Counted from the first letter of the stretch, positions 2,521-27,680 are shown. The stretch: DNA of 64,000 bases from Vitiosangium sp. GDMCC 1.1324 (GCF_003044305.1 NZ_PZOX01000005.1:451493-515492); one strand, 5' to 3'. The notes: generated by a model from the letters alone, not told the origin. Numbers and translations: made by a program.

Positions 2521-2521
2521 G

Positions 2522-6835: not shown

Positions 6836-6949
6836 CGAATACCGGCTACTGAGGGGTGAGACTCCCCGTAGGACGCGTTGGAGAGATTGGAGGCCACGGC
6901 TGGCCACGCCCAGGGGCTCCAACACCTCGCTCAACCCCATCCGCCTCAT

Positions 6950-7972
6950 TCAGGCATCAACTACAACCTCACGCACCTGCGACGACACCTGGCTCACCGA
7001 AACCTTCACATCGAGAAAGTGCGCGAACGTCTCAATCTGCGTCTGCGCATGTCCATCAAGCGGCAGGGTCCGGAACGAGCCACCACGGGCCAGCGCCAGC
7101 AACAGCATGAGCTGATCACACAGGTGCTCTCCCACGGGCACACCGGCCTCCAGGTAGACCCGAGCCTCCTCCGACACCGCCTCGGCCACGGCCTCCGAGC
7201 GCACACCCTTCTCCCCGAACGCGGTGAATACCTCGGTGACGTGCTCGCTCTCGACCTCCAGGTACAGCGCGTTCCCCGGTCCCACCGAGTTCTTCACCTC
7301 CTCCACCCGCCGCTCGTCCGGGAACCACGCGAGCTTCCTCCCTACCGTCTCCAGTTCCCGCTTCGCCACCTCGAACGGCACCTGCGAGATCAGCGCCGTG
7401 GCCTGCCGCCGCAAGACCTTCCCCCGCTCGAGCAGGTGCAGGGGCTTGAGCGGCGCGGGCTCCACGCTCACGAGGAACTTCCCTCCCCCGGCCGGGAAGA
7501 ACCCAGGCCGCTCCAGCGTCGCCTCCACGCTCGGCCCCATCCGACGCACCAGCGGCAGATACGCCTTCGTCAGGAAGTCGAACGGCGGCGCCGCCGGGTT
7601 GTGCGTCCCTCCCTCGAGCACCAGCATCGACGGCCCGCTCGCCCCCAGCAGCGCGGGCAACACCGTCTGCAGCACGAGCGTCGCACTCCCCGCCGTCCCC
7701 ACCGCGAAGTGGTACTCGCCGGACTTCAGGCTCCGAGGCCGGAACGTCAGCTCCTTCGAGTGCAGCTCCGCCCCCTCCAGGTCCGCGTCGCCCACGGCCG
7801 CCGCGGCCTTCACCGCCGTCAGGTGCTGGCGCAGCAGTCCCGGCTTCGAGCGTCCCGCCCGGATGTTCACCATCTGGAAGGGCTGTCCCGTCACCAGCGA
7901 CAGTGCCAGCGACGTGCGCAGCACCTGCCCCCCTCCCTCTCCCTTCGAACCGTCGATGCGAATCATCTCCAA
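6950..7972 (-). CDS. rtcA: RNA 3'-terminal phosphate cyclase
   Basis: MEMIRIDGSKGEGGGQVLRTSLALSLVTGQPFQMVNIRAGRSKPGLLRQHLTAVKAA... matches the RtcA N-terminal signature. Confidence 0.85.
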   Translation of the reverse strand: MEMIRIDGSKGEGGGQVLRTSLALSLVTGQPFQMVNIRAGRSKPGLLRQHLTAVKAAAAVGDADLEGAELHSKELTFRPRSLKSGEYHFAVGTAGSATLVLQTVLPALLGASGPSMLVLEGGTHNPAAPPFDFLTKAYLPLVRRMGPSVEATLERPGFFPAGGGKFLVSVEPAPLKPLHLLERGKVLRRQATALISQVPFEVAKRELETVGRKLAWFPDERRVEEVKNSVGPGNALYLEVESEHVTEVFTAFGEKGVRSEAVAEAVSEEARVYLEAGVPVGEHLCDQLMLLLALARGGSFRTLPLDGHAQTQIETFAHFLDVKVSVSQVSSQVREVVVDA

Positions 7973-8121
7973 ACCTCCCGTGAACCCCGTGTGCCCGCAC
8001 GTAGCGATGCCCGCTCCCTCATCCTAGCGACCGAAGTCTCGGAGAGAGCGGGCATCTCGATGTCTCTATCCCCTCATGTGTCTCCTCCCATGCTTGGGGT
8101 CCCCCCTTCTGGCTCACTCCT

Positions 8122-9360
8122 TCAACCCTTCACGCACACCACCTGGCGCAGCGTGTGGACCACGTCCACCAGGTCCGCCTGCGCCGCCATCACCGCGTCG
8201 ATCGGCTTGTACGCACCCGGCGTCTCGTCGATCACCTCCGCGTCCTTCCGGCACTCGATGCCCTCCGTCGCCTTCGCGTGGTCATCCAGCGTGAAGCGCC
8301 GCTTCGCCGCCTCGCGCGACATCACCCGCCCCGCCCCGTGGCTGCACGAGTGGAACGCCTCCGCGTTCCCCTTCCCTCGCACGATGTACGAGCGCGCACC
8401 CATGCTCCCGGGGATGATTCCCAAGTCCCCCTCTCGCGCCCGCACCGCCCCCTTGCGCGTCACGAAGACGTTCTTCCCGTAGTGGTGCTCGCGCGCCACG
8501 TAGTTGTGGTGGCAGTTCACCGCCGCCTCCGTGAGCTCGAACTCCGGCAGCTCACCGCTCGCCTTCAGCGCCTCCACCACCGAGCGCAGCATCAGCTCGC
8601 GGTTCATCGCCGCGTACTCCTGCGCCCAGCTCACCGCGTGGATGTAGTCCTCGAAGTACTCCGTCCCCTCGGGCAGGTACGCCAGGTCCTGCTCGGGCAG
8701 GTGGATGAAGAAGCGGCGCATGTCCTCCTTCGCCAGCTCGATGAAGTGGCTCCCAATCCGGTTCCCCACCCCGCGCGAGCCGCTGTGCAGCATCAGCCAC
8801 ACGTGGCCGGCCTCATCCAGGCACACCTCGATGAAGTGGTTCCCCGTCCCGAGCGTCCCGAGGTGCCCGAGGTCCGGGCCGCGGTCGATGCGCGGGTGCT
8901 TCGCGATGATGGCGTCGTAGCCGGGCTTCAGGCGCGCCCACGCCTCGCGGTGCATGGCGGGCGAGTCCTGCCACGCGCCCCGGTCGTTCCGACCACCGTT
9001 ATCCGTACGGCCGTGCGGCACCGCCTGCTCGATGGCCGAGCGCACCTTCGCCAGGGAGTCCGGGAGCTGCTCGGCGCGCAGCGTGGTGCGCACGGCGATC
9101 ATCCCGCAGCCGATGTCCACGCCCACCGCGGCCGGAATCACCGCGCCCGCCGTCGCCACCACGCTCCCCACCGTCGCGCCGTACCCGCGGTGCACGTCCG
9201 GCATCACCGCCACCCACTTGTGGATGAAGGGCAGGGCCGCCATCGCCTTCAGCTGCTTCTTCGCCTCGTCCTCGAAGGGCACCCCCACCGTCCACGCCTT
9301 GATGGGCACTCCACCCGTCTCGTTCGTCAGCACCTCGTAGTTGCGCGGCGTCGTCTGCAT
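8122..9360 (-). CDS. rtcB: RNA-splicing ligase RtcB
   Basis: MQTTPRNYEVL...HRGYGATVGSV...GTGNHFIE...HSGSRGVGN...CHHNY...GAGR conserved RtcB motifs. Start set at ATG 9360 within the longer 521-aa ORF. Confidence 0.9.
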   Translation of the reverse strand: MQTTPRNYEVLTNETGGVPIKAWTVGVPFEDEAKKQLKAMAALPFIHKWVAVMPDVHRGYGATVGSVVATAGAVIPAAVGVDIGCGMIAVRTTLRAEQLPDSLAKVRSAIEQAVPHGRTDNGGRNDRGAWQDSPAMHREAWARLKPGYDAIIAKHPRIDRGPDLGHLGTLGTGNHFIEVCLDEAGHVWLMLHSGSRGVGNRIGSHFIELAKEDMRRFFIHLPEQDLAYLPEGTEYFEDYIHAVSWAQEYAAMNRELMLRSVVEALKASGELPEFELTEAAVNCHHNYVAREHHYGKNVFVTRKGAVRAREGDLGIIPGSMGARSYIVRGKGNAEAFHSCSHGAGRVMSREAAKRRFTLDDHAKATEGIECRKDAEVIDETPGAYKPIDAVMAAQADLVDVVHTLRQVVCVKG

Positions 9361-9391
9361 GACCTGCTCCTTCGGAATCGTTCGCCCGGTC

Positions 9392-9431
9392 CGTGCCGGG
9401 CACGCGAGGGGGTAGAGCAGGCCGCGTGCCA
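9392..9431 (-). promoter_or_regulatory. putative sigma-54 promoter for rtcBA (minus-strand TTGGCACGcggcCTGCT, plus coords 9431-9416) plus a 6-1-6 perfect palindrome cgtgcc-g-ggcacg (9392-9404)
   Basis: Matches -24 TGGCACG and -12 (C/T)TGC with canonical spacing, ~50 nt upstream of rtcB. It lies in the divergent intergenic region shared with the sigma-54 activator gene rtcR. Confidence 0.4.
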
Positions 9432-9501
9432 ACGTCCTTCCCGAGGGAGAACGCGAATCCCCTGCCCGTCTTCCTATCCTCCAGGATAAAGTCCTATCCG
9501 C

Positions 9502-11136
9502 ATGGCGAAGACTCGGGCGCGCGAGACGGTGGTCATCGGGATGCTGGGCTCCATCCTCGACACGGGGCGAGGGCCCAAGCGCTGGGAGAAGTGGCGCCCC
9601 ACGGTGTCCCTCTGTCAGCAGGAGGACCTGCTGGTGCACCGGCTGGAGTTGCTCCACCAGAGCGCCCATGCCGAAATGGCGCGGCATGTGGCGGAGGACA
9701 TCGCCCAGGTGTCACCCGAGACGCGCGTGCACCTGACGGCGATGGACATCCAGAACCCGTGGGACCTGGAGGAGACCTATACGGCGCTGCTCGACTACGC
9801 GAAGGCCTACCCCTTCCAGCCCGAGCAGGAGGACTACCTCGTCCACATCACCACCGGAACGCACATCGCGCAGATCACCATGTTTCTGCTGACCGAGAGC
9901 CGGCACCTCCCCGCGCGGCTCATCCAGACGTCCCCGCCCACGGGAGGCAAGGACTACGGCGGCCCGGGAGCGCACACCATCATCGACCTGGACTTGTCGA
10001 AGTACGACACGCTGGCGAGGCGCTTCCAACAGGAGCAGCGCGAGGGCCTGTCCTTCCTGAAGGCGGGCATCGACACGCGCAACGCGGCCTTCAACCGGCT
10101 CATCGAGCGGATTGAACAGGTGGCCACGAGCTCGCGAGCGCCGCTGCTGCTCATGGGGCCCACGGGGGCGGGCAAGTCGCAGCTCGTCAAACGCATCTAC
10201 CAGCTCAAGAAGACCCGGCGGCTCGTGAACGGCCCGTTCGTGGACATCAACTGCGCCACCCTGCGCGGAGACGGGGCCATGTCCGCGCTCTTCGGGCACG
10301 TGAAGGGCTCGTTCACCGGGGCGCTGGCGGACCGGCCGGGGCTGCTGCGCCAGGCGCACGGCGGCGTGCTGTTCCTGGATGAGATTGGCGAGCTGGGCGC
10401 GGACGAGCAGGCCATGCTGCTGCGGGCGCTCGAGGACAAGCGCTTCCTGCCGGTGGGCGCGGACAAGGAGGTGGAGAGTGATTTCCAACTCATCGCCGGC
10501 ACCAACCGGGACCTGCAGGCCGAGGTGGAGCGCGGACGCTTCCGGGAGGATCTGCTGGCGCGCATCAACCTGTGGACCTTCCGGCTGCCGCCCCTGCGCG
10601 AGCGGCCCGAGGACATCCCTCCCAACCTCCTCTACGAGCTGGACCAGGCCTCGCAAGCACTGGGGACGCGGGTGACGATGAACAAGGAGGCCCAGGAGCA
10701 CTTCCTGCGCTTCGCCACCTCACCCGAGGCACGCTGGAGCGGCAACTTCCGGGATCTCAACGCGGCGGTGCTGCGGATGGCGACGCTCGCGCCCGGTGGA
10801 CGCATCACCCGCGAGGGCGTGGACGAGGAGCTGGAGCGGCTGCGCACCGCGTGGGCCAGGAACGGGCCGAGGCAGCAAGAGCCAGCGGTGGACCTCGTGG
10901 TGGAGGTACTCGGGGAGGAGAAGGCCCAGGCGCTGGATCGGTTCGACCGCGCGCAGCTCGCCGAGGTGCTCACGGTGTGCCGGCAGGCGCACTCGCTGTC
11001 CGACGCGGGGCGGGCCCTCTTCGCCCAATCGCGAGCGCAGAAGAAGAGCGTCAACGACGCGGATCGGCTGCGCAAGTACCTTGCCCGCTTCGAGCTGAGC
11101 TGGGCCGACGTGGCAACCCTGTCACCCACGGTCTGA
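9502..11136 (+). CDS. rtcR: sigma-54-dependent transcriptional regulator RtcR (CARF domain + AAA+ activator + HTH)
   Basis: 544 aa. N-terminal CARF-like region. GPTGAGKSQ Walker A, GSFTGA (GAFTGA variant) and ...FLDEIGEL. Divergent from rtcBA. Confidence 0.85.
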   Translation: MAKTRARETVVIGMLGSILDTGRGPKRWEKWRPTVSLCQQEDLLVHRLELLHQSAHAEMARHVAEDIAQVSPETRVHLTAMDIQNPWDLEETYTALLDYAKAYPFQPEQEDYLVHITTGTHIAQITMFLLTESRHLPARLIQTSPPTGGKDYGGPGAHTIIDLDLSKYDTLARRFQQEQREGLSFLKAGIDTRNAAFNRLIERIEQVATSSRAPLLLMGPTGAGKSQLVKRIYQLKKTRRLVNGPFVDINCATLRGDGAMSALFGHVKGSFTGALADRPGLLRQAHGGVLFLDEIGELGADEQAMLLRALEDKRFLPVGADKEVESDFQLIAGTNRDLQAEVERGRFREDLLARINLWTFRLPPLRERPEDIPPNLLYELDQASQALGTRVTMNKEAQEHFLRFATSPEARWSGNFRDLNAAVLRMATLAPGGRITREGVDEELERLRTAWARNGPRQQEPAVDLVVEVLGEEKAQALDRFDRAQLAEVLTVCRQAHSLSDAGRALFAQSRAQKKSVNDADRLRKYLARFELSWADVATLSPTV

Positions 11137-11219
11137 ATCCAGACGCAGTCCATGCGGCCGAACAACTTATAACATCCGCGCGCCGTCACCGGATTCCTCC
11201 TCCCCACAATGCACTCACA

Positions 11220-11241
11220 CCTCGACTTGCAAGAGTCGAGC
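11220..11241. other. perfect 7-bp inverted repeat with 6-nt spacer (ctcgact tgcaag agtcgag)
   Basis: Seen in the rtcR/T6SS intergenic region; possible operator or stem-loop. Function unknown. Confidence 0.3.
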
Positions 11242-11539
11242 ATGACCGGGGCTCGCTTCCTCGACGCTTGACACATCCGATTCCGCGACAGGTCCCTCCA
11301 CGTCTCGGAATACGGTGTTGCAACGGCTGAAGATCGGGCTCGCGCGCGATCAGGCAACGCGTATTCCGTCTCAGCCGAGGCACTCCCCCTTGCCGGGTGC
11401 GCTGCCGGGGAGTCCGGCTCGCGACCCGCCCGCGTTCGTCACAGACCTCACCCACCGTCTCCGCCTTGGAGCAGCAAGGGCAACTCTACGGAGCCCTCGC
11501 GGGGCCGCGTCCATCCACCGGCCCGAGGACACGACATCC

Positions 11540-11909
11540 ATGACTCGTGCATACGATCTTCCCGGTGCCGTGCAGTGGCATGAAGGAATGCTGCTCGCAC
11601 CCCAGCACTTCCAACAGCAGGACCGCCGATACGAGGCGCTGCTGCACTTCCATCTCGGCCTGGACATACCCTTCCACTGGGGCGTGAGCCAGCTCCAGTA
11701 TGACTGGGTCTTCCAGTCCTCCACCTTCACGCAGCCCTCGCTGCTGCGCGGCCTCTACTTCTGCGGTGCCCTCCCACCTGCTGGAGCGCAAGGCCTTCCC
11801 CGAGAGCGGACTGGCCAGCCCGAATGTCGAGGCCGCGCGCATCAACCGGCGGGGCGCCTCACCCTTCGATGACGCCCCCCCGCCCCCACCCTCCTCCCCG
11901 AGCCCCCAG
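11540..11909 (+). pseudogene. remnant in-frame fusion of tssK N-terminus (~50 codons) to an internal segment of the tssM-like gene, with a frameshift
   Basis: MTRAYDLPGAVQWHEGMLLAPQHFQQQDRRYEALLHFHLGLDIPFHWGVSQLQYD is ~80% identical to the N-terminus of TssK at 27028. It continues as VFQSSTFTQPSLLRGLYFCG (vs LFESSPYTEPALLRGIYFCG in the 23211-24827 protein). In another frame it reads HLLERKAFPESGLASPNVEAARINRR (vs QLLERKAFPESGLASPEAEALRKNRR). Confidence 0.6.
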
Positions 11910-11911
11910 CC

Positions 11912-13006
11912 ATGGACGACATGAACCCCGCCTCTCCACTGGACCTCGAGCCGATCCTGCGGCCGATCTCCCCCGACGCGCCCTCGGGACGCAGCCTGCG
12001 CTACGAGCCCCTCTACGATCAGATCCGCGAGGCGCGCCGCGAGGATGACCCCTCGCTGCCCCAGGGCGTCTGGCAGACCTCCCTCAAGCGCGCCAACTGG
12101 GCCCAAGTGACCGAGCTCTGCCAGCAGGCCCTGGCGCACGAATCCAAGGACCTGCAGCTGGCCACCTGGCTCACCGAGGCCTGGGGAATCCAGCAGGGCT
12201 TCCCGGGCGTGGCGCAGGGACTGAGCCTGACCACCGCGCTGGTGGATCGCTTCTGGGATTCCCTGTGGCCGGCCCTCGAGGACGAGGATGCGGAGGCCCG
12301 GCTCGCCCCCCTGGCATGGCTCGACGACAAGCTTCCCCTCGTCCTGGGCAAGGTGCCCCTCGTCAAGGCGCAGACTCCCGGCGGCGTGAGCATTGACTTC
12401 GCGGCCTGGCAGCGGATCCTCCACCGGGAGAAGCACCAGGGAGCTGGCCAGGACGAATCGAGCCCAGAGAAAGCCGGGGCCTCGAGTGGCCCTCTGAACC
12501 GGGAGACCTTCCTGGCCAGCGCCGCGCTGATGCCAGCCCCCGCCCTCGACATGCTCGCGCGAGGGGTGGACGCCGCACTGGCGGCCAGCTCCGCACTGGA
12601 GCAGGCCCTCGACTCGCGGCTGGGACGAACCAGCGCGGCACTGCGCCGCACCCGCTCCACCCTCGGCGACCTCCAGACGCTGGTCTCCACGCTGCGCGCC
12701 AACACCCCTCGGGAGGAACCCGGAGCGGGAGTCGAAGCCCCGCTGGACACGGCGGTCGCGGACATGCCCTCGGTACCGGGGCGGCGTTCGGGCGCCATCC
12801 GTAGCCGGGAGGAGGCCTACCAGATGCTGGCCCTCGCCTCCGACTACCTGCGGCGTACCGAGCCCCACAGCCCCGTCGCCTACCTGGTCAAGCGCGCCGT
12901 GAGTTGGGGACAGATGCCGCTCGCCCAGCTCCTCTCGGAGCTCGTCCCCGATTCCTCCAACCTGGAAGCCATCCAATCTCTGCTCGGCATGAAGAAAGCG
13001 GAGTGA
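11912..13006 (+). CDS. tssA: type VI secretion protein TssA (ImpA N-terminal domain)
   Basis: PISPDAPSGRSLRYEPLYDQIREARREDDPSLPQGVWQ is the ImpA_N signature. 364 aa. Confidence 0.8.
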   Translation: MDDMNPASPLDLEPILRPISPDAPSGRSLRYEPLYDQIREARREDDPSLPQGVWQTSLKRANWAQVTELCQQALAHESKDLQLATWLTEAWGIQQGFPGVAQGLSLTTALVDRFWDSLWPALEDEDAEARLAPLAWLDDKLPLVLGKVPLVKAQTPGGVSIDFAAWQRILHREKHQGAGQDESSPEKAGASSGPLNRETFLASAALMPAPALDMLARGVDAALAASSALEQALDSRLGRTSAALRRTRSTLGDLQTLVSTLRANTPREEPGAGVEAPLDTAVADMPSVPGRRSGAIRSREEAYQMLALASDYLRRTEPHSPVAYLVKRAVSWGQMPLAQLLSELVPDSSNLEAIQSLLGMKKAE

Positions 13007-13026
13007 GCCCCTCGTGAGGCCAGACC

Positions 13027-13494
13027 ATGACACAGAGCAAGCAGCTCCGCGGATTCCCGGCCCCGCTGTTCGACAGGCTGATGGACCTGGAGACCGTCCC
13101 CGCCGTGCTGGATGAGCAGGAATTGCGCGCCTCGGTGAGGCGCGAGGTGGCCCATGCGCTGAGCACCCGCTGCATGCTCTCCCTGGAGCAGGCGGATGCG
13201 CTCGAGCCACACGAGCGCTCGGTCCTGGACTATGGGCTGCCCGACCTGCGGACACTCGGCTCCACCGCCGACGCCGCCCGGCAACTGGAGCGGATCATCT
13301 CCCGCGCGGTGGAGGCCTACGAGCCACGCCTGCGGCAACTCCGGGTCTCCGTGCGGCTTCCTCCCGAGGAGGAAGGCCTCCCCGTCGCGGTGATCACCGC
13401 CCGGCTGGTGCACGAGCCCATGACGGAGCCCATCACCTTTCCGCTGCAGCTGGACCGGAGCGGGAGGCTGTTGGAGGTGGGCGAGGAGCGCTGA
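13027..13494 (+). CDS. tssE: T6SS baseplate protein TssE (gp25-like)
   Basis: PLFDRLMDL...ASVRREVAHALSTRCMLSLEQ...VLDYGLPDL...RAVEAYEPRL is the GPW/gp25 family pattern. 155 aa. Confidence 0.75.
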   Translation: MTQSKQLRGFPAPLFDRLMDLETVPAVLDEQELRASVRREVAHALSTRCMLSLEQADALEPHERSVLDYGLPDLRTLGSTADAARQLERIISRAVEAYEPRLRQLRVSVRLPPEEEGLPVAVITARLVHEPMTEPITFPLQLDRSGRLLEVGEER

Positions 13495-13553
13495 AGCCTC
13501 ACAAAGGATGCCGGCGGTTTCTCCCTTACATGTCTCACGGAAAGGAGCGGTAG

Positions 13554-14129
13554 ATGACATACATCAACATGACGACGGGACTGCTGAATGCGACGTACAG
13601 ATTGCTCGCCGAGTCGGCGAAGAATCCCGTCGAGGTCGGACTGCTGATGCGTTGGAACGAGGACGACCGTTACCTCTGGACGATCTGGTCCGAGGCATAC
13701 CATCCGGGCATCGTCACCAGCTATTCCTCGGCTGGGATGAGACGCGATGTCGGTGGGCATGCCGAGGAGATATTGATCAAGAATTGGAGGGGATACGAGC
13801 AAGAGGCGGGTTTCCGCCCCCGGATCGTCGATCTGATCCTCACCAAGCTTCCCTGCTTCATGACTTCGAATGCCGTGACGCTGGGCACGCGTCAACTGCC
13901 CGTGGGTTGTGCCGGCAAGCTCAAGGTGCTCATCGAGGAGATACAGCCCGGCGTGCTCGATTGGCGGCTCGCCTATTTCAGGGAGCTGAACCCCGGCCCC
14001 AACTCGGATATCGAGAACGGTGGATCCCTGTCGCTCCTGAGCACAATCCAAAAGCTGTCGGTCTACTCATTCTTGGATCACCATTCCTTCGTGGCGCAGG
14101 GCTTCGGGGATGGGCTGACGATTGCCTGA
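13554..14129 (+). CDS. hypothetical protein, lower GC than neighbours; candidate deaminase-like fold (HAE ... PC motif spacing)
   Basis: 191 aa. Contains GGHAEEILIKNW followed ~29 aa later by LTKLPCFMTSNAV. RBS ggaaaggag upstream. GC visibly lower than flanking T6SS genes. Confidence 0.55.
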   Translation: MTYINMTTGLLNATYRLLAESAKNPVEVGLLMRWNEDDRYLWTIWSEAYHPGIVTSYSSAGMRRDVGGHAEEILIKNWRGYEQEAGFRPRIVDLILTKLPCFMTSNAVTLGTRQLPVGCAGKLKVLIEEIQPGVLDWRLAYFRELNPGPNSDIENGGSLSLLSTIQKLSVYSFLDHHSFVAQGFGDGLTIA

Positions 14130-14213
14130 ATTGGCGCCCGTCACATCTCCCCGCGCCACGCTCTACCCTGGAGTGCGCAGTGAAAGCCAGACACACTGAA
14201 AAGGAAGAATGAC

Positions 14214-14723
14214 ATGCCCACAAAGGAAAGCATCCAACACGTTCTGGATCGGGTCCGCCCTCCGCGGGTGCAGATCACCTACGACGTGGAGATTGGTGAC
14301 GCGGTGGAACAGAAGGAGCTGCCGCTGGTGGTCGGCGTCCTGGCGGACCTGGCCGGCCAGCAGAAGGAGCTGCCTCGGTTGAAGGAGCGCAAGTTCGTGG
14401 AGATCGACCGCGACAACTTCAACAAGGTGATGGCGGCCATCGGGCCCCAGCTGCGGATGTCCGTGCCGGACAAGCTGCGCGACGATGGCGGCAGCATGGC
14501 CGTGGAGCTGCGCTTCAAGAGCATCGACTCCTTCCACCCGCGCCAGCTCGTCGAGCAGATAGAGCCCCTGCGGAAGCTGCTGGAGGCGCGCCAGCGGCTG
14601 GTGGACCTGCTCGCGAAGCTGGACGGCAATGACGCGCTGGCGGAGCTGCTGCGGTCCGCGCTGGAGGACAGGGCTCGCCTCCAGGCGCTCGAGTCCGAGC
14701 TGGCGGCGAAGCGCGAGCAGTGA
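14214..14723 (+). CDS. tssB: T6SS contractile sheath small subunit TssB (VipA)
   Basis: MPTKESIQHVLDRVRPPRVQITYDVEIGDAVEQKELPLVVGVLADLAGQ; 169 aa. Confidence 0.9.
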   Translation: MPTKESIQHVLDRVRPPRVQITYDVEIGDAVEQKELPLVVGVLADLAGQQKELPRLKERKFVEIDRDNFNKVMAAIGPQLRMSVPDKLRDDGGSMAVELRFKSIDSFHPRQLVEQIEPLRKLLEARQRLVDLLAKLDGNDALAELLRSALEDRARLQALESELAAKREQ

Positions 14724-14764
14724 GCACCCGTACCCATCCACACACACGACACGGAGAGAGAGAG

Positions 14765-16261
14765 ATGTTCCAGGAAGAAATGAAGGAAGAGGCACGGGGT
14801 ACCCAGACGGCGGTGACGGAGCCGGAGCGGGGACTGCTGGCGCGCATCATCGAAGAGGGCAGGCTGGCGCGCGACGACAGCCAGCAGCCCCGCGCCCGCG
14901 AGCTGGTGGGCGAGCTGGTGAGCCAGGCGCTCTCCACGGAGTCCATTCCCAGCGGCATGGACGTGGTGTCGCTCATCAACCAGCGCATCGCCCGCATCGA
15001 CGAGCTGCTGGGCACTCAGCTCGACGAGGTGCTCCACGCCGAGCCCTTCCAGCGGTTGGAGGCCTCCTGGCGGGGGTTGCACATGCTGGTCCATGGCACC
15101 GAGACGGGGACGAACCTGAAGCTGCGCGTGCTGCACGCCACCAAGAAGGAACTGCTGGATGACCTGGAGCGGGCGCCCGAGTTCGACCAGAGCGCCCTCT
15201 TCAAGAAGGTCTACGAGGAGGAGTACGGCACCTTCGGCGGTCAGCCGTACGGGGTGCTCATCGGCGACTACGAGTTCGGCCGGGTGCCCCGGGACGTGGC
15301 GCTGCTGGAGTCCATCTCCCACGTGGCCGCCGCCGCCCACGCCCCTTTCATCACCGCGGCCAGTCCCTCGCTGTTCGACCTGGACAGCTTCACGGACATT
15401 GGCGCCCCGAGGGACCTGGCGCGCATCTTCGAGAGCACCGAGCTCATCCGCTGGCGGAGCTTCCGGGATTCGGAGGACGCCCGCTACGTGTCGCTGGTGT
15501 TGCCCCATGTGCTGGGAAGGCTGCCCTATGGCGAGGACACCCAGCCGGTGGAGGGCTTCGGCTACCAGGAGGACGTGGACGGCAGGGATCACCGCAAGTA
15601 CCTGTGGGGCAACGCGGCGTACGCCCTGGGCCTGCGTATCACCGCCGCCTTCGCGCTCTACCAGTGGTGCGCCAACATCCGCGGGGTGGAAGGGGGCGGC
15701 ATCGTCCAGGGGCTGCCCACGCATACCTTCCGCACCGACGAGGGGGACATCGCCCAGAAGTGCCCCACCGAGGTGGCCATCACCGACCGGCGTGAGAAGG
15801 AGTTGAGCGACCTGGGCTTCATCGCCCTGTGCCACTGCAAGGGAACCGACTACGCGGCCTTCTTCGGCTCGCAGACGGCCAACAAGCCCCGCCGCTACGA
15901 CACGCCCCAGGCCAATGCCAACGCGGAGCTGTCCTCCCAGCTGCCCTACATCCTGTCCTCCTCGCGCTTCGCCCACTACCTCAAGGTCATCATGCGCGAC
16001 AAGATTGGCGGCTTCGCCTCGCGCGAGGAGATCTCCGACTACCTCAACCGGTGGATCAGCCAGTACGTGCAGACGAACGAGAACGCATCCTTCTCCATCA
16101 AGGCCCGCCAGCCGCTGCGCGAGGCGCAAGTGGACGTCACCGAGGTGCCGGGCCACCCTGGCAGCTACCGGGCGGTGGTGTTCCTCCGCCCCCACTTCCA
16201 GCTCAACGAGCTGACCGCCTCCATCCGCCTGGTGGCCGAGCTGCCCAAGTCGGCCGCGTGA
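14765..16261 (+). CDS. tssC: T6SS contractile sheath large subunit TssC (VipB)
   Basis: ~498 aa with conserved TssC core (..YGVLIGDYEFG.., ..LPHVLGRLPYGE.., ..GLPTHTF..). ATG 14765 preferred over GTG 14720 (RBS ggagagag). Confidence 0.9.
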   Translation: MFQEEMKEEARGTQTAVTEPERGLLARIIEEGRLARDDSQQPRARELVGELVSQALSTESIPSGMDVVSLINQRIARIDELLGTQLDEVLHAEPFQRLEASWRGLHMLVHGTETGTNLKLRVLHATKKELLDDLERAPEFDQSALFKKVYEEEYGTFGGQPYGVLIGDYEFGRVPRDVALLESISHVAAAAHAPFITAASPSLFDLDSFTDIGAPRDLARIFESTELIRWRSFRDSEDARYVSLVLPHVLGRLPYGEDTQPVEGFGYQEDVDGRDHRKYLWGNAAYALGLRITAAFALYQWCANIRGVEGGGIVQGLPTHTFRTDEGDIAQKCPTEVAITDRREKELSDLGFIALCHCKGTDYAAFFGSQTANKPRRYDTPQANANAELSSQLPYILSSSRFAHYLKVIMRDKIGGFASREEISDYLNRWISQYVQTNENASFSIKARQPLREAQVDVTEVPGHPGSYRAVVFLRPHFQLNELTASIRLVAELPKSAA

Positions 16262-22260: not shown

Positions 22261-23087
22261 CTACGGCTGGATGTTCTTGTTCAACCGGAAGAAGTTGGTC
22301 GGGTCGTAGGTGCGCTTCAGGGCGGTGAGGCGCTTCCATTTGGCCTCGCCGTACGTCTCCCGCACACGCCCGGCGGGCTCGTCGGCGTCGATGAAATTGA
22401 GCGGGGTCCCCCCGCTCGAGAAGGAGTGGGCGGCTTGCCAGGCGTCCTGCACCCAGCGAGTGTGGCGCTCGGCGTCGGCCGGGTCTCTCCAGCTCGACTG
22501 GAACATCGAAAAGAAAGGCGACGCGCGCCCCGAGAATGCGGTCTCGTCCTCGCCAACCCACGCGATCGCGCCCTTCATATGGGCGAGCTCCAGGAAGCAG
22601 AGGGACGACGGGGCCGCTCGAAGCTGCGCGGTGATGGCCTCGATGGCCTCCTCTCCCAGCTTGGAGAGATAATCCGAGCGGATGGCTTGACTGTAGCCAT
22701 GGGCAGCCCCCGGTCCCGAATCGAGTACCTTCTGATGACCCCCGCCTGAATGCGCGCGGTGCGCCGCGCTGGATCGACGCGGATGCCCTTCATGAGGGAG
22801 AGATCGATCACCAGGCCGCCGTCGCACACGCCGTTGCCGGCGACATCGTGCCCGCCGCCCCGCACCGCGACCAGCGCGTCGTGCTCCCGCGCGAACCGCA
22901 CGGCGGCGAGGGACATCGGCGGCCCCGGTGCATCGAGCGATCAACGCCGGCCGCTTGTCGATCCGAGCATTCCAGACGACGCGGGCCGCGTCGTAGCGCG
23001 GGCTGCCGGGGCAATGAGCTCGCCGCGAAAGTTGGACCGAAGCGAGTCGAGCGCGGATTGCTTGAAGCGAGCTCCCTGGGAATTCAT
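22261..23087 (-). pseudogene. decayed FAD-linked oxidase (BBE/PCMH-type) gene: three frames, internally deleted
   Basis: Frame 1: MNSQGARF...IAPGSPRYDAARVVWNARIDKRPALIARCTGAADV. Frame 2: AVRFAREHDALVAVRGGGHDVAGNGVCDGGLVIDLSLMKGIRVDPARRTARIQAGV (FAD_binding_4). Frame 3: ...GEDETAFSGRAS...YGEAKWKRLTALKRTYDPTNFFRLNKNIQP (BBE C-terminus). Total span ~830 nt versus ~1.4 kb expected. Confidence 0.55.
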
Positions 23088-23210: not shown

Positions 23211-24827
23211 TCATCCCTGGGGAATGACGATCTGCTGGCCCGGCATGAGGTTGTCTTTGTTGAGGCCGGGGTTGGCCTCCACGATGCGAGGCCATTGATT
23301 GCCGTCGTGCAGGTAGCGCTGGGCGATGTCGTAGATGATGTCGCCCGGCTTGACGGTGTAGAGCGTGCCCTTGGGTTTGTCCTTGGGCGCGTACTGGGAC
23401 GCGTACTGGGACGCGGAGGCCACGGGGCCCGTCTGGTTGGTCCAGCGGGGGCGCCCATCCGGGCCGCGGATGAGCAGGATGCCGTCGTCCCGCATCACCA
23501 GCTCGCTCTTCTCCTGGCCCTGGGTCTTGCTGCTCCACACGGGCGCATTGGCGGCCTGGTACACGACGAGATTGCCGTCGCGCTGCATGGCCGTGCGCCA
23601 GGCCCGCTTGCCCTGGGTGTTGGTGGCCCAGCGGGCCTGCTGGGTGGTCAGGTCGTAGATGACGAGGTTGCCGTCGTCCTGGTACACGAGGGCGAAGCGG
23701 CCGTTGGCGGAGACGAGCCGCTCGCCGGGCGTGAGGAACGCGTTGTCCCCTCCGCGCAGCACGCTCTTGGAGCCTCCGAGGAACACGCCCAGGAGGATCA
23801 GGAGCACGCCCAGCAGCACGCTCGCCGCGAGCCCTGCCTTGAGCAGGGTCAACTGCCGCCGGTTCTTGCGCAGGGCCTCGGCCTCGGGACTCGCCAGGCC
23901 GCTCTCGGGAAAGGCCTTGCGCTCCAGCAGCTGGGTGATGAAGGCCGGAGAGCGGGGCTCGCGCAGCCCGTCCCGGCCCGGCCGGAGGACACCTTCCGCG
24001 TCCGGATCCCCGCAGAAGTAGATGCCTCGCAGCAGCGCGGGCTCCGTGTAGGGGCTGGACTCGAAGAGTCCATCGAGCAGCCGCCGCACCGGCTCGGCCA
24101 TGTCGCGCAGCTGGGAGGGGAAGAGGAAGGCGGACTCGCGCTCGGCCGCGGTGCCGCGCCCATCGGCGAACAGCTCCAGCTGCATCGTGCACAGGCCCTG
24201 GTGGATGCTGGCGAAGGCCTCGTTCACCCACGCGGAGATGTACGGCTCCTGGGGCGGGTGGGGAGTGGACCAGCCGAGCATCTCCTCGCGCAGGCTCGGT
24301 GGCAGGGAGCGGCACCACGCCGTGAAGCCGGGGAGGACGTCACACTGGGTGATGACGACGTAGATGGGGAAGCGCACGCCCAGCTCGCCGCGCAGGGACT
24401 GCAAGCCCTGGAAGAGGGCACGCGCCTTGCGGTCGAGTCCGACGTCGTCGAGCGCCTGCGGGCCCATCAGCTCATGGGCCGGTATCGTGAGCAGCACGCC
24501 GTCGATGGGGCGCTGGCCCCGCACGCGGCGCAGATCTCTCAGCACGCCCTGGAACTCGGGCCCCGGCTCCTCCGTCAGGCCGGGCATGTCGATGACGGCG
24601 CCCTGGTCGTAGAGCCAGACGCCCCAGCCCTCGGCCTCCATCTCCTTGCGGCTGGGCGTACCGTAGGGACGGCGCAGGTGGGCGCCCGCGGCCAGCGAGG
24701 TGCGCCCCGAGCGCGGCTCTCCCACGAGCATGAGCCAGGGCAGTTGGTAGCGGCGATTGCGACGGGTGCCGGTGGCCCCGATGCGGTCGATCGCCGTGTC
24801 GATGGGAGATTTCTGGAGGGCGGTCAT
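23211..24827 (-). CDS. TssM/IcmF-like N-terminal NTPase domain protein fused to TM helix, bulb-type lectin (B_lectin) and C-terminal LysM domain
   Basis: Start MTALQK (ATGA overlap with tssL stop). YQLPWLMLVGEPRSGRTSLAAG (degenerate P-loop), PIYVVITQCDVLPGFTAWC (ImcF-related N-domain). TM LLKAGLAASVLLGVLLILLGVFLGG. Two QxDGNLVxY lectin motifs. LysM YTVKPGDIIYDIAQRYLHDGNQWPRIVEANPGLNKDNLMPGQQIVIP. Confidence 0.7.
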   Translation of the reverse strand: MTALQKSPIDTAIDRIGATGTRRNRRYQLPWLMLVGEPRSGRTSLAAGAHLRRPYGTPSRKEMEAEGWGVWLYDQGAVIDMPGLTEEPGPEFQGVLRDLRRVRGQRPIDGVLLTIPAHELMGPQALDDVGLDRKARALFQGLQSLRGELGVRFPIYVVITQCDVLPGFTAWCRSLPPSLREEMLGWSTPHPPQEPYISAWVNEAFASIHQGLCTMQLELFADGRGTAAERESAFLFPSQLRDMAEPVRRLLDGLFESSPYTEPALLRGIYFCGDPDAEGVLRPGRDGLREPRSPAFITQLLERKAFPESGLASPEAEALRKNRRQLTLLKAGLAASVLLGVLLILLGVFLGGSKSVLRGGDNAFLTPGERLVSANGRFALVYQDDGNLVIYDLTTQQARWATNTQGKRAWRTAMQRDGNLVVYQAANAPVWSSKTQGQEKSELVMRDDGILLIRGPDGRPRWTNQTGPVASASQYASQYAPKDKPKGTLYTVKPGDIIYDIAQRYLHDGNQWPRIVEANPGLNKDNLMPGQQIVIPQG

Positions 24828-25657
24828 CGGCGGTTCTCCTGGGCGGTGCGGGCGGCCGCGGGAGTGTGGTCGTGAGAGGTGTTGAGGACGATGGCGGTGG
24901 GGACGAGGACGAGGATCGCGGCGGCGATACCGGCGGCCCAGGGCCAGCGCGGCGCGAGCCGCCGATCCGAGCGCTCGTCCAGGGTGTGCGCGTAGGTCTG
25001 GGGCAGCAGCCGGCGCGACGGCGCGTCGGGCTCGGGCGGGCGTTGGTGGATGAGCACGTAGAGCTGGCGCTGCAGATCCTGCAGGAGCGCCTCCTCGCCG
25101 TGCTCGCGGTAGCGGCCCTGGAAACCGAGCGCGAGCATCAGCAGGTACACTTCGGCCATCTCGGCCTGGGTCGGGTCGCGGTCCTGCAGCAGGCGCTTCA
25201 CGTCTTCGAAGATGCGCTCGCCGGCGTGGTGGGTGCCAAAGAGCACGTCCTCCAGCAGGCCCTCGCGCCAAGCATCACGGCCGTACCACGGGGTGTTGAC
25301 GAGCACCTCGTCGGCGAAGCTGGCCATCACGTAGCGGCACTGCTCGAGCTGGCGCTCCTGGAGCGAGCCGCGGGGGGCGCCCTCGAGCCGGCTCTGCTGC
25401 TCCACGCGCGCGAGCAGTCGCTGGCGGATCTCCTCGACACTGGGGCCCTGCCGCCCCTGTCCGGAGGGGCGGGAGATGGCCTGCAGGCGTTGGCGCAGCT
25501 CGAGCAGCTCCGTGAAGAGCGTGCGGGTGCGCTCGAGCAACAGGGAGGAGCCGGACGGCTCATCGAAGAAGGGAGGCGTGTTCATGGCGGAAGAGGGCTC
25601 GCGGCGCCTGCCCCGGTCGTTCCAGGACGAGGAGGCGGAATGGGATGACGGACTCAT
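24824..25657 (-). CDS. tssL: T6SS membrane protein TssL (DotU family)
   Basis: LEQCRYVMASFADEVLVNTPWYGRDAW...FGTHHAGERIFEDVKRLL...EVYLLMLALGFQGRY plus C-terminal TM AAGIAAAILVLVPTAIVL. Alternative start ATG 25585. Confidence 0.8.
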   Translation of the reverse strand: MSPSSHSASSSWNDRGRRREPSSAMNTPPFFDEPSGSSLLLERTRTLFTELLELRQRLQAISRPSGQGRQGPSVEEIRQRLLARVEQQSRLEGAPRGSLQERQLEQCRYVMASFADEVLVNTPWYGRDAWREGLLEDVLFGTHHAGERIFEDVKRLLQDRDPTQAEMAEVYLLMLALGFQGRYREHGEEALLQDLQRQLYVLIHQRPPEPDAPSRRLLPQTYAHTLDERSDRRLAPRWPWAAGIAAAILVLVPTAIVLNTSHDHTPAAARTAQENRR

Positions 25658-25714
25658 GTGTGGTGACTCCTTCGGTTCTCAGGGTGAGTGGTGACGGCTG
25701 GATGTGACGTGGAC

Positions 25715-27028
25715 TCACGGCTCGTTGCGGATGAGCAGGGAGATATCGGCGGCGGCCTGCACCTCTCCGGGCTCCAGCGTGTTCTCGAGCAACAGCCGCT
25801 CATCGGGCCGGAGGTAGAAGGGACTGGCCTCCAGGGAGAAGAGGAGCGCACCAGGGCGGGGCACCAGGCCCGCGGGGGGCTCGATGAGCTCGCGCCGGGC
25901 CCCGAGCGTGCGCGTCTCGCGCATCTGCCGGTGGCGCGTGTCCGAGCCGATGCGGCACCCGGCCATCCATCCCAGCACCTGCTGCCGCGTGGTGCCCGGA
26001 CGGCCGCGCACTTCGAGCACCATCTCGCGGCCCATCCACGCGGGGAGCAGGCGCGTGTGGAAGCCGCTGCCCTCGGGAGTGAGCTGCACCCGCGTGTACG
26101 CCTCGGAGAGGCCCCGCTCCAGCGCGCCCTCGACGAAGTCGAACACCTGTTGGAAGGAGCGCAGCGGATCCAGGTGCTCGTACGCGGGGAACGCGGGAGG
26201 GATGCGCACCTCCGCGACGTGGGCGACCTGGCCGGCCAGGGAGCACAACGCGAGGTAGAGGGTGAAGGGGTGCACCTCGCCGGAGCGCAGCAGGGCCTCG
26301 TAGGGCGGCAGCCCGGCCACGAGCCAGTGCAGCTGACGCTGGTGCTCGGCGAGCACGTGCGGCTCGTCGGCGGCGTCGCGCATGGCCTCCACCAGGTGGG
26401 CGGCTTTCTGCCGGACGCGCAGGGAGAGCCGGTCACAGCGCTCGCCGAGCGTCGAATCCAGGCCCACGGCGAGCAGCGGCGGCAGGTAGTCCTCCACGGC
26501 GAAGGACTCGCCCAGGCGGCGCACCTCCACGAGCGGCAGGGAGGCGTACCCGGCGGGAGGCAGGCCGGCGAACAGCTGCAGGCGCGGGGTGAGCTGGGGG
26601 ATGCTCAGCGGCGTGTCCCCGGTGCTCTCGTCGACGAGCGGCTCGCTGGTGGTGGACACGAAGCGGCTGGGATTGCTCGTGCGCCCGGTGGGCACGCCCA
26701 CGTGCAGACGCACCGGGTGCTGCCAGTTCACCTCGGTGAGGCCCGCGAAGGCGAGTTGGAGGGGCGGGGCTCCTTCTCCCGCCTGGTACGAGAGGAACAG
26801 CCCATCGGGCAGCAGGGCCTCCAATTCCCGGAGCTGGAGGGTGCCCGCCACCAGGCGCGTGCGGTCGTACTCCAGCCGGCTCACGCCCCAGTGGAAGGGC
26901 GCGGCCCGCTGGAGATGGAAGTGCAGCAGCGCCTCGTGGTGCTGGTCCTGCTGTTGGAAGTGTTGGGGGGCCAGCAGCATGCCCTCGTGCCATTGCACGG
27001 CGGAGGGAATCGGCGGGGTGGGAGGCAT
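25715..27028 (-). CDS. tssK: T6SS baseplate protein TssK
   Basis: MPPTPPIPSAVQWHEGMLLAPQHFQQQDQHHEALLHFHL... is the canonical TssK N-terminus; 437 aa. Confidence 0.85.
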   Translation of the reverse strand: MPPTPPIPSAVQWHEGMLLAPQHFQQQDQHHEALLHFHLQRAAPFHWGVSRLEYDRTRLVAGTLQLRELEALLPDGLFLSYQAGEGAPPLQLAFAGLTEVNWQHPVRLHVGVPTGRTSNPSRFVSTTSEPLVDESTGDTPLSIPQLTPRLQLFAGLPPAGYASLPLVEVRRLGESFAVEDYLPPLLAVGLDSTLGERCDRLSLRVRQKAAHLVEAMRDAADEPHVLAEHQRQLHWLVAGLPPYEALLRSGEVHPFTLYLALCSLAGQVAHVAEVRIPPAFPAYEHLDPLRSFQQVFDFVEGALERGLSEAYTRVQLTPEGSGFHTRLLPAWMGREMVLEVRGRPGTTRQQVLGWMAGCRIGSDTRHRQMRETRTLGARRELIEPPAGLVPRPGALLFSLEASPFYLRPDERLLLENTLEPGEVQAAADISLLIRNEP

Positions 27029-27680
27029 GAACTGTCTCTCGGAGGGAAGGGAGTCGGCTGGCAGGTCCCCCCAGGTCCGAGCCCGAGGAAATCCGCCTCA
27101 GGGGTGGAGCCACGGTGGGCGCGATGTGATGTGACTGCTTCCGGGACGTGCTTCCCCGCCCGCCGTCAGACCCGCTGGCTGTTGTGCTCGAAGGCTTGTC
27201 CCATGCGCGCCATCAGTTCCTCCGTGCCCAGCCGCCAAAGTCCGGCAGGTGCACCCCGGGTGGGAGGAACCACGTGCACGGGTGGCACTGTATGGGCGCT
27301 TCGTACGCCACCATGTGGTGGACGGAGTGGCGAAGCGATGGGCTGGTACTCGCCCCCTGAGCGGCCGAGCAACCCCGCGCAACCTCGGGCATCCATGCTC
27401 CCGTGCGGCCACCGGGGCCGTACATCGGCGCCCCGCACACGTCACCAAGAGATTCCCCCCGCGTGACCCGAACGATGCTATCGAACAGGCAGCAGACCGG
27501 CCCCTGCTCGGTTAGTTGCTCGACGCCGACCCATGGTCATGGGAGATGGCGGTGCCCGGTGAAGAGTGGGCCCAGGGACGTACGCAGTTCCCGGTTCGAG
27601 GCCGAGCTCGTCCCGGGGAGCAGGTGATCAACGTGGACACAGCAGTCATGCATGACGGTCAGTCGCGGGGACAGGCCCCC

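What the first reader, a model, noticed from the sequence alone, without database searches (positions are those of the whole stretch)
11540..11909. Fused tssK'::tssM' remnant immediately 5' of tssA indicates an ancestral contiguous operon and a duplication/inversion event
Codons 1-50 of this fragment are ~80% identical to the N-terminus of the intact TssK at 27028-25715. The fragment then continues in frame into a segment matching the middle of the TssM-like protein (LLRGLYFCG vs LLRGIYFCG). After a frameshift it reads LLERKAFPESGLASP..RINRR (vs LLERKAFPESGLASPEAEALRKNRR). It ends where the intact protein's TM helix would start, and its stop overlaps the tssA ATG. The simplest model is that a tssK-tssL-tssM' copy once preceded tssA on the + strand and was largely deleted. 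The functional copy now sits inverted 11 kb downstream.
Basis: seen in the sequence. Interest (0 to 1): 0.55.

Follow-up and report, generated by a model that had tools for sequence, protein, structure and literature searches.

The report
Scar of displaced native T6SS genes
The 370-base stretch in front of tssA is the decayed leftover of this myxobacterium's original tssK-tssL-tssM secretion-system genes, but the intact set 11 kb downstream is not a moved copy of them: it comes from a different type VI secretion lineage and has replaced them.

Summary
Window 11540-11911 holds four collinear pieces of a tssK-tssL-tssM operon: tssK codons 1-55, two pieces of tssM, and the last 55 nt of tssM. Together they form a frameshifted chimeric pseudogene abutting the tssA start.

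In four relatives (Archangium minus, A. lansingense, Cystobacter fuscus and a MAG), intact tssK-tssL-tssM sits exactly here. About 3.0 of 3.4 kb was lost in at least three deletions.

The "duplication/inversion" part is not supported. The remnant is 87-93% identical in nucleotides to the C. fuscus genes at the ancestral site. It is only 81-84% identical to the intact inverted copy in the same window.

That intact copy (23211-27028, minus strand) groups with a second lineage, typified by Melittangium boletus, for all three genes. It also shares that lineage's TssM architecture (IcmF_N, one transmembrane helix, B-lectin, LysM). The rest of the cluster (tssA to vgrG) groups with C. fuscus.

Best model: a tssKLM module from another lineage (horizontally acquired, or a captured old paralog) displaced the native genes, which then decayed. 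RefSeq annotates the scar as a 110-aa "TssK". This is a tidy case of module replacement, not a new kind of system.

The parts
11137..11539 (+). Intergenic region between rtcR and the remnant. It is presumed to hold the retained promoter and 5' leader of the old tssK-led operon.
   Evidence: The position is equivalent to the rtcR-tssK spacer in L002 and L004. No nucleotide similarity to relatives upstream of about 11519. No sigma-70 or sigma-54 consensus site found. The promoter role is inferred only.
11540..11704 (+). tssK' : start codon and codons 1-55 of the native (clade I) tssK.
   Evidence: 86.6% nt to C. fuscus L003 1583-1746 and 87.3% to A. minus. Only 81.5% to the window's intact tssK. 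Pfam T6SS_VasE positions 1-33 only, below cutoff.
11705..11770 (+). tssM' piece 1 (..VFQSSTFTQPSLLRGLYFCG), fused in frame to tssK' after a 2,681-nt deletion.
   Evidence: 11709-11766 is 93.1% identical to L003 4433-4490, against 84.5% to the intact copy. The junction shows GAC microhomology.
11771..11856 (+). tssM' piece 2 (HLLERKAFPESGLASPNVEAARINRRG), shifted to frame 2 by a 56-nt deletion.
   Evidence: 11773-11856 is 92.9% identical to L003 4553-4636, against 83.8% to the intact copy. Junction shown.
11857..11911 (+). tssM' piece 3: the last ~55 nt of the native tssM (SPFDDAPPPPPSSPSPQ), directly abutting the tssA ATG. It follows a 276-nt deletion that removed the transmembrane helix and Pro-rich tail. 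The ancestral stop TAG is mutated to CAG.
   Evidence: 87.0% over 54 nt to L003 4914-4967. An imperfect CCGGnGGGCG direct repeat lies at the deletion edges. The C. fuscus TssM C-terminus is shown.
11912..13006 (+). tssA, now the first intact gene of the + strand T6SS operon (tssA-tssE-orf-tssB-tssC-hcp-tssF-tssG-vgrG, to 21479).
   Evidence: Pfam ImpA_N and the other core families. Sister to C. fuscus in the nucleotide tree.
25715..27028 (-). Intact tssK of the replacing (clade II, Melittangium-type) module.
   Evidence: Pfam T6SS_VasE full length. 76-77% aa to M. boletus and L082, against 68-71% to clade I. Clade II including the window 300/300. omega 0.27.
24824..25657 (-). Intact tssL (DotU) of the replacing module. 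Its stop overlaps the tssM-like start (ATGA).
   Evidence: Pfam DotU. 84.8-85.6% nt to clade II against 73-78% to clade I. Tree.
23211..24827 (-). Intact short TssM-like gene of the replacing module: IcmF-related N domain, one transmembrane helix, B-lectin and LysM.
   Evidence: Pfam. The only full-length homologues with the same architecture are M. boletus P0002 (69% aa) and L083. Tree.
22578..23087 (-). N-terminal fragment of an FAD-linked oxidase (pseudogene with an internal stop and truncation), immediately after the tssM-like stop. A rearrangement scar at the left edge of the inserted block.
   Evidence: Translation. Pfam FAD_binding_4, E 1.9e-13, profile positions 15-73 of 139 only. Absent from all related loci.
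27248..27336 (+). 89-nt scar of the gene that follows mbnB/DUF692 in relatives. It marks the right edge of the replaced segment. mbnB itself is missing from the window.
   Evidence: 91.0, 87.4 and 85.9% to L002 19181-19269, L003 17101-17187 and L004 18734-18818. In relatives the homology extends on both sides; in the window it does not. MbnB_TglH_ChrH lies upstream in L002 and L003.

Best explanation
Window 11540-11911 is a non-functional scar of the native tssK-tssL-tssM genes, which once headed this T6SS operon just downstream of rtcR. At least three deletions (2,681, 56 and 276 nt) removed about 3.0 of 3.39 kb.

Two ends survive. One is the tssK start with its first 55 codons, and presumably the promoter and leader upstream of it. 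The other is the last ~55 nt of tssM, which abuts the tssA start. Transcription and translation of tssA to vgrG can therefore plausibly continue from the old signals.

The TssK/TssL/TssM functions are now supplied by a three-gene module of a different T6SS lineage (clade II, Melittangium-type, with a B-lectin/LysM TssM). This module lies inverted between the vgrG/MORN effector region and matE. It was acquired either by horizontal transfer from a Melittangium-related myxobacterium or by capture of an old paralogous cluster. Its arrival made the native genes redundant, and they decayed.

Shown: the homology, collinearity, synteny, phylogenetic incongruence and deletion junctions.

Inferred: the order of events (gain before loss), retention of promoter and translational-coupling function, and that the chimeric T6SS works.
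For: - Synteny: four relatives carry intact tssK-L-M immediately 5' of tssA. Two of them have the same rtcB-rtcR and matE flanks as the window.
- The remnant is collinear with, and closest to, the C. fuscus genes at that site: 86.6-93.1% nt against 81.5-84.5% to the window's intact copy.
- Bootstrap on the remnant: the split (clade I + remnant | clade II + intact copy) appeared 1000/1000 times; remnant sister to C. fuscus 808/1000; remnant sister to the intact copy 0/1000.
- tssA and tssB trees place the window with C. fuscus. tssK, tssL and tssM trees place the intact copy with M. boletus, L082 and L083. The TssK protein tree gives 300/300.
- Per-gene nucleotide identity to C. fuscus is 90-92% for tssB to vgrG but 74-76% for the intact K, L and M. 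Identity to M. boletus and L082 is 79-86% for K, L and M.
- The B_lectin+LysM TssM architecture is shared only with clade II, which has canonical K-L-M-A order in other genomic contexts.
- The intact genes are full length, have GC3 of 0.91-0.92, and omega of 0.27-0.44 against Melittangium.
- The scars on both sides of the inserted block (an FAD-oxidase fragment and an 89-nt gene remnant, with mbnB lost) indicate insertion/replacement rather than a clean inversion.
- Among the hits listed by the two protein-database searches, only one Vitiosangium TssK and one Vitiosangium TssM-like protein appear, apart from the 110-aa remnant ORF.
Against: - No donor closer than about 80% nt was found, so the transfer is old or from an unsampled lineage. 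The intact module is the basal branch of clade II.
- No sampled genome carries both lineages, so horizontal transfer and capture of an old paralog cannot be told apart.
- No mobile-element genes, tRNA or flanking repeats mark the block, and its composition is native-like.
- The remnant shows no excess substitutions relative to its functional C. fuscus orthologue (Tajima test 15 versus 13, not significant). The dN/dS of its tssK' part is low (0.06-0.16). This means either that the decay is recent or that about 290 nt gives too little power. It does not exclude residual constraint.
- No promoter was detected upstream.
- The C. fuscus reference assembly (L003) has many frameshift errors, although the nucleotide comparisons are robust to them.
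Confidence: 0.82

Rival explanations
1. One reading: the native tssK-tssL-tssM was duplicated in inverted orientation 11 kb downstream (or moved there), and the original copy was then largely deleted. On this model the remnant and the intact copy are recent paralogs.
For: The remnant and the intact genes are homologous and in opposite orientation. The ancestral site is confirmed by synteny.
Against: The remnant is nearer to C. fuscus (89.4% over 284 nt) than to the intact copy (81.6%). It was never sister to the intact copy in 1000 bootstraps. The intact K, L and M group with Melittangium-type clusters and carry their B-lectin/LysM TssM domain, which clade-I TssM proteins lack. No inversion-mediating repeats were found. 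The edges of the block carry unrelated gene fragments.
Confidence: 0.05
2. Captured ancient paralog, a sub-variant of the best model without horizontal transfer. The Vitiosangium ancestor carried two T6SS clusters (clade I and clade II). An intragenomic rearrangement brought the clade-II tssKLM next to the clade-I cluster. The rest of clade II and the native tssKLM were then lost.
For: The block's composition is native-like, with GC3 of 0.91-0.92. The intact module is basal to the sampled clade II rather than nested in it. The FAD-oxidase fragment next to tssM could be a piece of the former chromosomal neighbourhood.
Against: In the TssK and TssM searches, no listed genome has both lineages: each species appears in only one clade. 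No clade-II tssA or other core-gene remnant lies next to the block or elsewhere in the 64-kb window.
Confidence: 0.3
3. The 110-aa ORF (RefSeq WP_146209761.1, annotated as TssK) is a functional small protein or regulatory leader retained by selection. It might act as a TssK N-terminal mimic or as an upstream ORF that couples translation to tssA.
For: The ATG and the first 55 codons are intact with low dN/dS. The ORF is annotated as a protein. Its position immediately 5' of tssA and the retained 3' end of tssM fit a role as a leader.
Against: - Only 55 TssK codons survive. They match Pfam T6SS_VasE profile positions 1-33 of 429, below the cutoff. From my own knowledge, the TssK N-terminal domain is roughly 190 residues, so this would be about a quarter of it.
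- The C-terminal half of the ORF is out-of-frame tssM sequence.
- Three separate deletions and a lost stop codon are typical of decay.
- No homologue of the fused ORF exists elsewhere: the J1 junction pattern found nothing in metagenome contigs, and the protein cluster holds only this genome.
Confidence: 0.07

Closest known systems
Intact tssK-tssL-tssM operon head of the Archangium/Cystobacter T6SS (A. minus CP043494, A. lansingense, C. fuscus NCWS; loci L002, L004, L003)
   Same: Same chromosomal position (rtcR ... tssA). The order of the surviving pieces is collinear. Nucleotide identity is 87-93%. The final FDDAPPP..SPSP motif of TssM abuts the tssA ATG in the same way.
   Different: In the window, 3.0 of 3.39 kb is missing: all of tssL, 88% of tssK and most of tssM. 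The reading frame is broken and the tssM stop codon is mutated.
Melittangium boletus DSM 14713 T6SS cluster (CP022163, L081) and related clade-II clusters (L082, L083)
   Same: The window's intact tssK, tssL and tssM are their closest relatives (76, 76 and 69% aa; 79-86% nt). The TssM shares their IcmF_N, transmembrane helix, B-lectin and LysM architecture.
   Different: In those genomes the module sits in canonical order directly 5' of its own clade-II tssA. In the window it is detached, inverted, placed at the far end of a clade-I cluster, and followed by an oxidase gene fragment instead of tssA.
Xenologous (non-orthologous) gene displacement within conserved operons, with a pseudogene relic of the displaced copy
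   Same: The module and its neighbours have incongruent phylogenies. A redundant native copy decays in situ. Operon function is presumably preserved.
   Different: Here a three-gene structural sub-module of a secretion machine is displaced as a unit, and the replacement sits at a different place and in a different orientation from the relic. I know of no described T6SS example, and the limited literature searches found none.

Membership tests
TssK (Pfam PF05936 T6SS_VasE), as annotated in RefSeq for the 110-aa ORF | Whole-protein Pfam score above the gathering threshold, with coverage of the ~430-position profile (shoulder, neck and head domains) | tested here: not met
   21.9 bits against a cutoff of 23.4. 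Only profile positions 1-33 of 429 are matched. The sequence after residue 55 derives from tssM.
TssM / IcmF-related N-terminal domain (PF14331) | NTPase-like cytoplasmic domain followed by a transmembrane helix | tested here: not met
   No Pfam hit to PF14331 for the remnant. Only about 50 residues of the domain's C-terminal end survive, in two frames. The transmembrane helix is deleted.
Unitary pseudogene / deletion relic of a resident gene | Significant homology to functional genes, truncation and frameshift, and location at the syntenic position of intact orthologues in relatives | tested here: met
   Remnant sister to the intact copy in 0 of 1000 bootstraps. The remnant is 89.4% identical to C. 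fuscus against 81.6% to the intact copy.
Xenologous / paralogous module displacement | Phylogeny of the replacing genes is incongruent with that of the flanking cluster genes | tested here: met
   tssA and tssB group with C. fuscus. The intact tssK, tssL and tssM group with Melittangium-type clusters.
Xenologous / paralogous module displacement | An identifiable donor, or hallmarks of transfer (mobile-element genes, tRNA site, compositional anomaly) | tested here: not met
   No tRNA, Rfam hit or flanking repeats. GC3 is native-like. The best relatives are only 79-86% nt identical. Metagenome scans found nothing closer.
Functional T6SS-i membrane complex/baseplate module (TssK-TssL-TssM) for the intact copy | Full-length genes under purifying selection | tested here: met
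   Full-length Pfam coverage. omega 0.27-0.44. The tssL and tssM reading frames overlap by ATGA.
Functional T6SS-i membrane complex/baseplate module (TssK-TssL-TssM) for the intact copy | Assembly with the clade-I TssF/TssG baseplate and secretion activity | not testable with these tools
   Needs Hcp-secretion or killing assays and interaction tests.

The most novel reading that the evidence does not exclude
The locus is a natural module-swap experiment. A clade-I sheath/tube/baseplate (tssA to vgrG) would be working with a heterologous clade-II TssK-TssL-TssM unit. The TssM of that unit is short, anchors to peptidoglycan or glycan through B-lectin and LysM, and lacks the canonical periplasmic domain; no tssJ was seen in the window or in the loci examined. 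If the machine is active, TssK-L-M is an independently exchangeable evolutionary unit of the T6SS. The retained relic, which keeps the promoter and the tssA-coupling ends, would then show which parts of the old genes selection kept.
Probability: 0.3. Interest if true: 0.5.

Novelty: new member of a known kind. Interest (0 to 1): 0.33.

Why it matters
The finding corrects a database annotation: RefSeq WP_146209761.1, labelled "TssK", is a chimeric pseudogene.

It documents with a physical relic that the TssK-TssL-TssM sub-module of a type VI secretion system can be replaced as a unit by one from a lineage about 25% diverged in nucleotide sequence. The replacement includes a change in how TssM is built on the periplasmic side.

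For T6SS evolution and engineering, this suggests that the interface between TssK and the TssF/G baseplate tolerates heterologous partners, while K, L and M co-evolve as a block.

It is an instructive evolutionary case rather than a new biological mechanism.

Tried and rejected
- tblastx of the downstream regions against the window gave only high-GC noise and was discarded. The blastn lines of the same call were used.
- Consensus scans for sigma-70 promoters and terminators, and for a sigma-54 site, upstream of the remnant found nothing. The only good sigma-54-like site is upstream of rtcB.
- No tRNA or Rfam family lies in 9-30 kb.
- No direct or inverted repeats flank the inverted block that could explain an inversion or transposition.
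- No remnant of a clade-II tssA or other clade-II core gene lies near the block or elsewhere in the window.
- An exact-pattern scan of metagenome contigs for the tssK'::tssM' junction found nothing.
- A metagenome scan with the intact TssK found only distant relatives of 31% identity or less over long matches.
- A look-up of the contig encoding the window's own TssK returned nothing on record.
- Literature searches for myxobacterial T6SS TssM/TssJ and for Vitiosangium found nothing bearing on this locus.
- The low identity (46% aa) of C. fuscus L003 TssK by tblastn was traced to frameshift errors in that assembly. A properly called C. fuscus TssK is 68% identical, so it is not evidence of divergence.

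Full report
**Source and gene map**

The window comes from Vitiosangium sp. GDMCC 1.1324. Its TssM-like and TssK proteins are 100% identical to NCBI entries of that strain.

Pfam scans give this order:
- rtcA (6950-7972, minus strand) and rtcB (8122-9687, minus strand)
- rtcR (9502-11136, plus strand)
- the finding (11540-11911)
- tssA (11912-13006), tssE (13027-13494), an unknown ~700-nt insert
- tssB (14214-14723), tssC (14720-16261), hcp (16320-16781)
- tssF (about 16844-18649), tssG (to 19632), vgrG (to 21479)
- a MORN-repeat gene (21496-22119)
- then, on the minus strand, a TssM-like gene (24827-23211), tssL (25657-24824) and tssK (27028-25715)
- matE (27516-29027, plus strand)

The TssM-like gene encodes an IcmF-related N domain, one transmembrane helix, a B-lectin domain and a LysM domain.

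**1.

blastn of the fragment against the whole window finds three strong matches on the minus strand of the intact genes:
- 11559-11704 matches 27009-26864 (81.5% over 146 nt, E 7e-36).
- 11709-11766 matches 24067-24010 (84.5% over 58 nt).
- 11773-11852 matches 23935-23856 (83.8% over 80 nt).

Everything else is at noise level.

Two details are refined. It has no counterpart in the window's intact TssM but matches the 3' end of the C. fuscus tssM. Second, neither ORF's stop overlaps the tssA ATG. Frame 1 ends at 11872. Frame 2 ends at 11924 because the ancestral TAG is now CAG.

**2. What once stood here**

I used TssF as an anchor, with 10-kb flanks, so that whole clusters came back. The four closest loci are Cystobacter fuscus NCWS (L003; TssF 87% aa), a MAG (L001), Archangium minus (L002) and A. 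lansingense (L004). All four have tssK-tssL-tssM-tssA on one strand. L002 and L004 also share the window's outer flanks: rtcB-rtcR upstream and matE downstream.

Against C. fuscus, the relic resolves into four collinear pieces separated by three deletions:
- 2,681 nt, from tssK codon 55 to about codon 252 of tssM. It is in frame, with 2-3 nt of microhomology.
- 56 nt, which causes the frameshift.
- 276 nt, which removes the transmembrane helix and the Pro-rich tail. It is flanked by an imperfect CCGGnGGGCG direct repeat.

What survives is exactly the two ends of the old three-gene block. One end is the tssK start. The other is the last 55 nt that abut the tssA ATG.

**3. The intact copy is not a copy of these genes**

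Per-gene nucleotide identities show that the cluster is a chimera.

| Segment of the window | vs C. fuscus | vs Melittangium boletus (L081) / metagenome locus L082 | vs the window's intact copy |
|---|---|---|---|
| tssB, tssC, tssF, tssG, vgrG | 90-92% | 76-83% (L081) | not applicable |
| Intact inverted tssK, tssL, tssM | 76.4%, 73.6%, 75.8% | 79-86% | not applicable |
| Relic (four pieces) | 86.6%, 93.1%, 92.9%, 87.0% | 77-83% | 81.5%, 84.5%, 83.8% (three pieces) |

The intact tssK, tssL and tssM are also about equally distant from the other clade-I loci.

NJ trees resolve two lineages:
- Clade I: A. minus, A. lansingense, C. fuscus and MAG L001.
- Clade II: M. boletus, L082 and the MAG labelled "Cystobacter sp." (L083).

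The window's tssA and tssB fall in clade I, next to C. fuscus. Its intact tssK, tssL and tssM fall in clade II.

I placed the 288 alignable relic nucleotides into the tssK and tssM alignments and ran 1000 bootstraps:
- the split (clade I + relic | clade II + intact copy) appeared 1000 times;
- relic sister to C. fuscus appeared 808 times;
- relic sister to the intact copy appeared 0 times.

A 20-taxon TssK protein tree gives clade II including the window 300/300 support.

Domain architecture agrees. Only clade-II TssM proteins carry B-lectin and LysM: M. boletus P0002, 542 aa and 69% identical, and L083. Clade-I TssM proteins end in a Pro-rich tail. In their own genomes the clade-II modules sit in canonical K-L-M-A order, in unrelated chromosomal contexts.

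**4. How the block sits in the chromosome**

The segment between the MORN gene and matE has been remodelled.
- Directly after the tssM-like stop lies the N-terminal part of an FAD-linked oxidase. It carries an internal stop and is truncated (23087-22578, minus strand; Pfam FAD_binding_4 E 1.9e-13, profile positions 15-73 of 139). It is found in none of the relatives.
- On the other side, 27248-27336 is an 89-nt island of homology (86-91%) to the gene that follows mbnB/DUF692 in A. minus, A. lansingense and C. fuscus. In those genomes the homology continues on both sides. In the window it does not, and mbnB is absent.

So the arrival of the block went with deletion of resident genes and left junk at both edges.

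There is no tRNA, no Rfam element, no flanking repeat pair and no compositional anomaly. There is no clade-II tssA relic either.

**5. Most likely history and mechanism**

*Shown.* The relic is orthologous to the clade-I genes at this site. The intact module belongs to another lineage. The intact genes are full length and under purifying selection (omega 0.27-0.44 against M. boletus).

*Inferred.*
- The foreign or paralogous module was gained first, which made the native genes redundant. They were then whittled away by successive deletions.
- Deletions that spared the 5' end (promoter, leader and start codon) and the 3' end (the tssA translation-initiation context) were the ones tolerated, because tssA to vgrG still depend on them.
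- TssK, TssL and TssM were replaced together because, by established T6SS structural knowledge, they contact each other directly: TssK links the TssF/G baseplate to the TssL/TssM cytoplasmic domains. Only the TssK-TssFG interface then has to work across lineages.

*Timing.* The relic has no excess of substitutions over its functional C. fuscus orthologue (Tajima 15 versus 13, not significant), and its tssK' part has a low dN/dS. This suggests recent decay, but about 290 nt gives little power.

*Horizontal transfer or captured old paralog.* This cannot be decided. No genome listed in the searches holds both lineages, which favours transfer. The native-like composition and the basal position of the module in clade II leave paralog capture open.

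**6. Comparison with what is known, and novelty**

This is a pseudogene relic of a xenologous or paralogous displacement inside a conserved operon, which is a known kind of event. I found no description of it for this locus, or of a TssK-L-M swap in myxobacteria, in the paper library. That search was narrow.

RefSeq annotates the relic's 110-aa ORF as "type VI secretion system baseplate subunit TssK" (WP_146209761.1). That is a misannotation: it scores below the Pfam threshold, covers 33 of 429 profile positions, and its second half is out-of-frame tssM.

**7. Verdict**

Interest is moderate to low. It is a clean and instructive example of module replacement in a secretion-system cluster, with a testable implication (heterologous compatibility between TssK-L-M and the baseplate), but it is not a new kind of system.

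Noticed in passing
window 11540-11872: RefSeq annotates this 110-aa chimeric, frameshifted relic as a protein, 'type VI secretion system baseplate subunit TssK' (WP_146209761.1). GenBank has a 94-aa 'hypothetical protein' (PTL82645.1) in the same protein cluster.
   Followed up: yes
window 22578-23087 (minus strand): N-terminal fragment of an FAD-linked oxidase (FAD_binding_4, profile positions 15-73 of 139) with an internal stop, lying 124 nt after the tssM-like stop. It is absent from all related loci. It may be a piece of the block's former neighbourhood.
   Followed up: partly
window 27248-27336; L002 19181-19269, L003 17101-17187, L004 18734-18818: An 89-nt island, 86-91% identical to an internal part of the gene that follows an mbnB/TglH/ChrH (DUF692) RiPP-modification gene in three relatives. 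Both of those genes are otherwise gone from the window.
   Followed up: partly
window 23211-24827 (minus strand); L002 4372-5796; L003 3676-4965; L081 10001-11629: All TssM homologues in these Archangiaceae clusters are short (about 420-545 aa). They have an IcmF_N domain and one transmembrane helix, followed either by a Pro-rich tail or by B-lectin and LysM. None has the canonical IcmF C-terminal periplasmic domains. No tssJ or clpV is seen in the window. Sorangium and Chondromyces homologues are full length. This points to a minimal or differently anchored membrane complex.
   Followed up: partly
window 13495-14213: A ~700-nt insert between tssE and tssB with an ORF of unknown function (13554-14129, GC3 0.78, no Pfam hit). 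C. fuscus has only about 90 nt at this position.
   Followed up: no
window 13027-13494 versus L001, L002, L004 and L081: tssE lies directly after tssA in the window and in C. fuscus. It lies between hcp and tssF in Archangium, the MAG and Melittangium. This is a shared rearrangement that supports the window-C. fuscus grouping.
   Followed up: partly
window 21952-22026: Four tandem copies of a 15-nt unit (CAAGACGCGAAGGCT-like) at the 3' end of the MORN-repeat gene downstream of vgrG.
   Followed up: no
window 9417-9431 (minus strand): A sigma-54-type -24/-12 match (TGGCACGCGGCCTGC, one mismatch) in the divergent rtcB-rtcR spacer. This fits RtcR-dependent rtcBA expression. No such site lies upstream of the T6SS relic.
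   Followed up: no
L003 (Cystobacter fuscus NCWS, JBMEQP010000002.1) 1500-14600: Nearly every T6SS gene in this assembly is broken into several frames: tssK, tssB, tssC, tssF and vgrG. This looks like long-read indel errors rather than real pseudogenes. Protein-level identities to this locus are therefore unreliable.
   Followed up: partly
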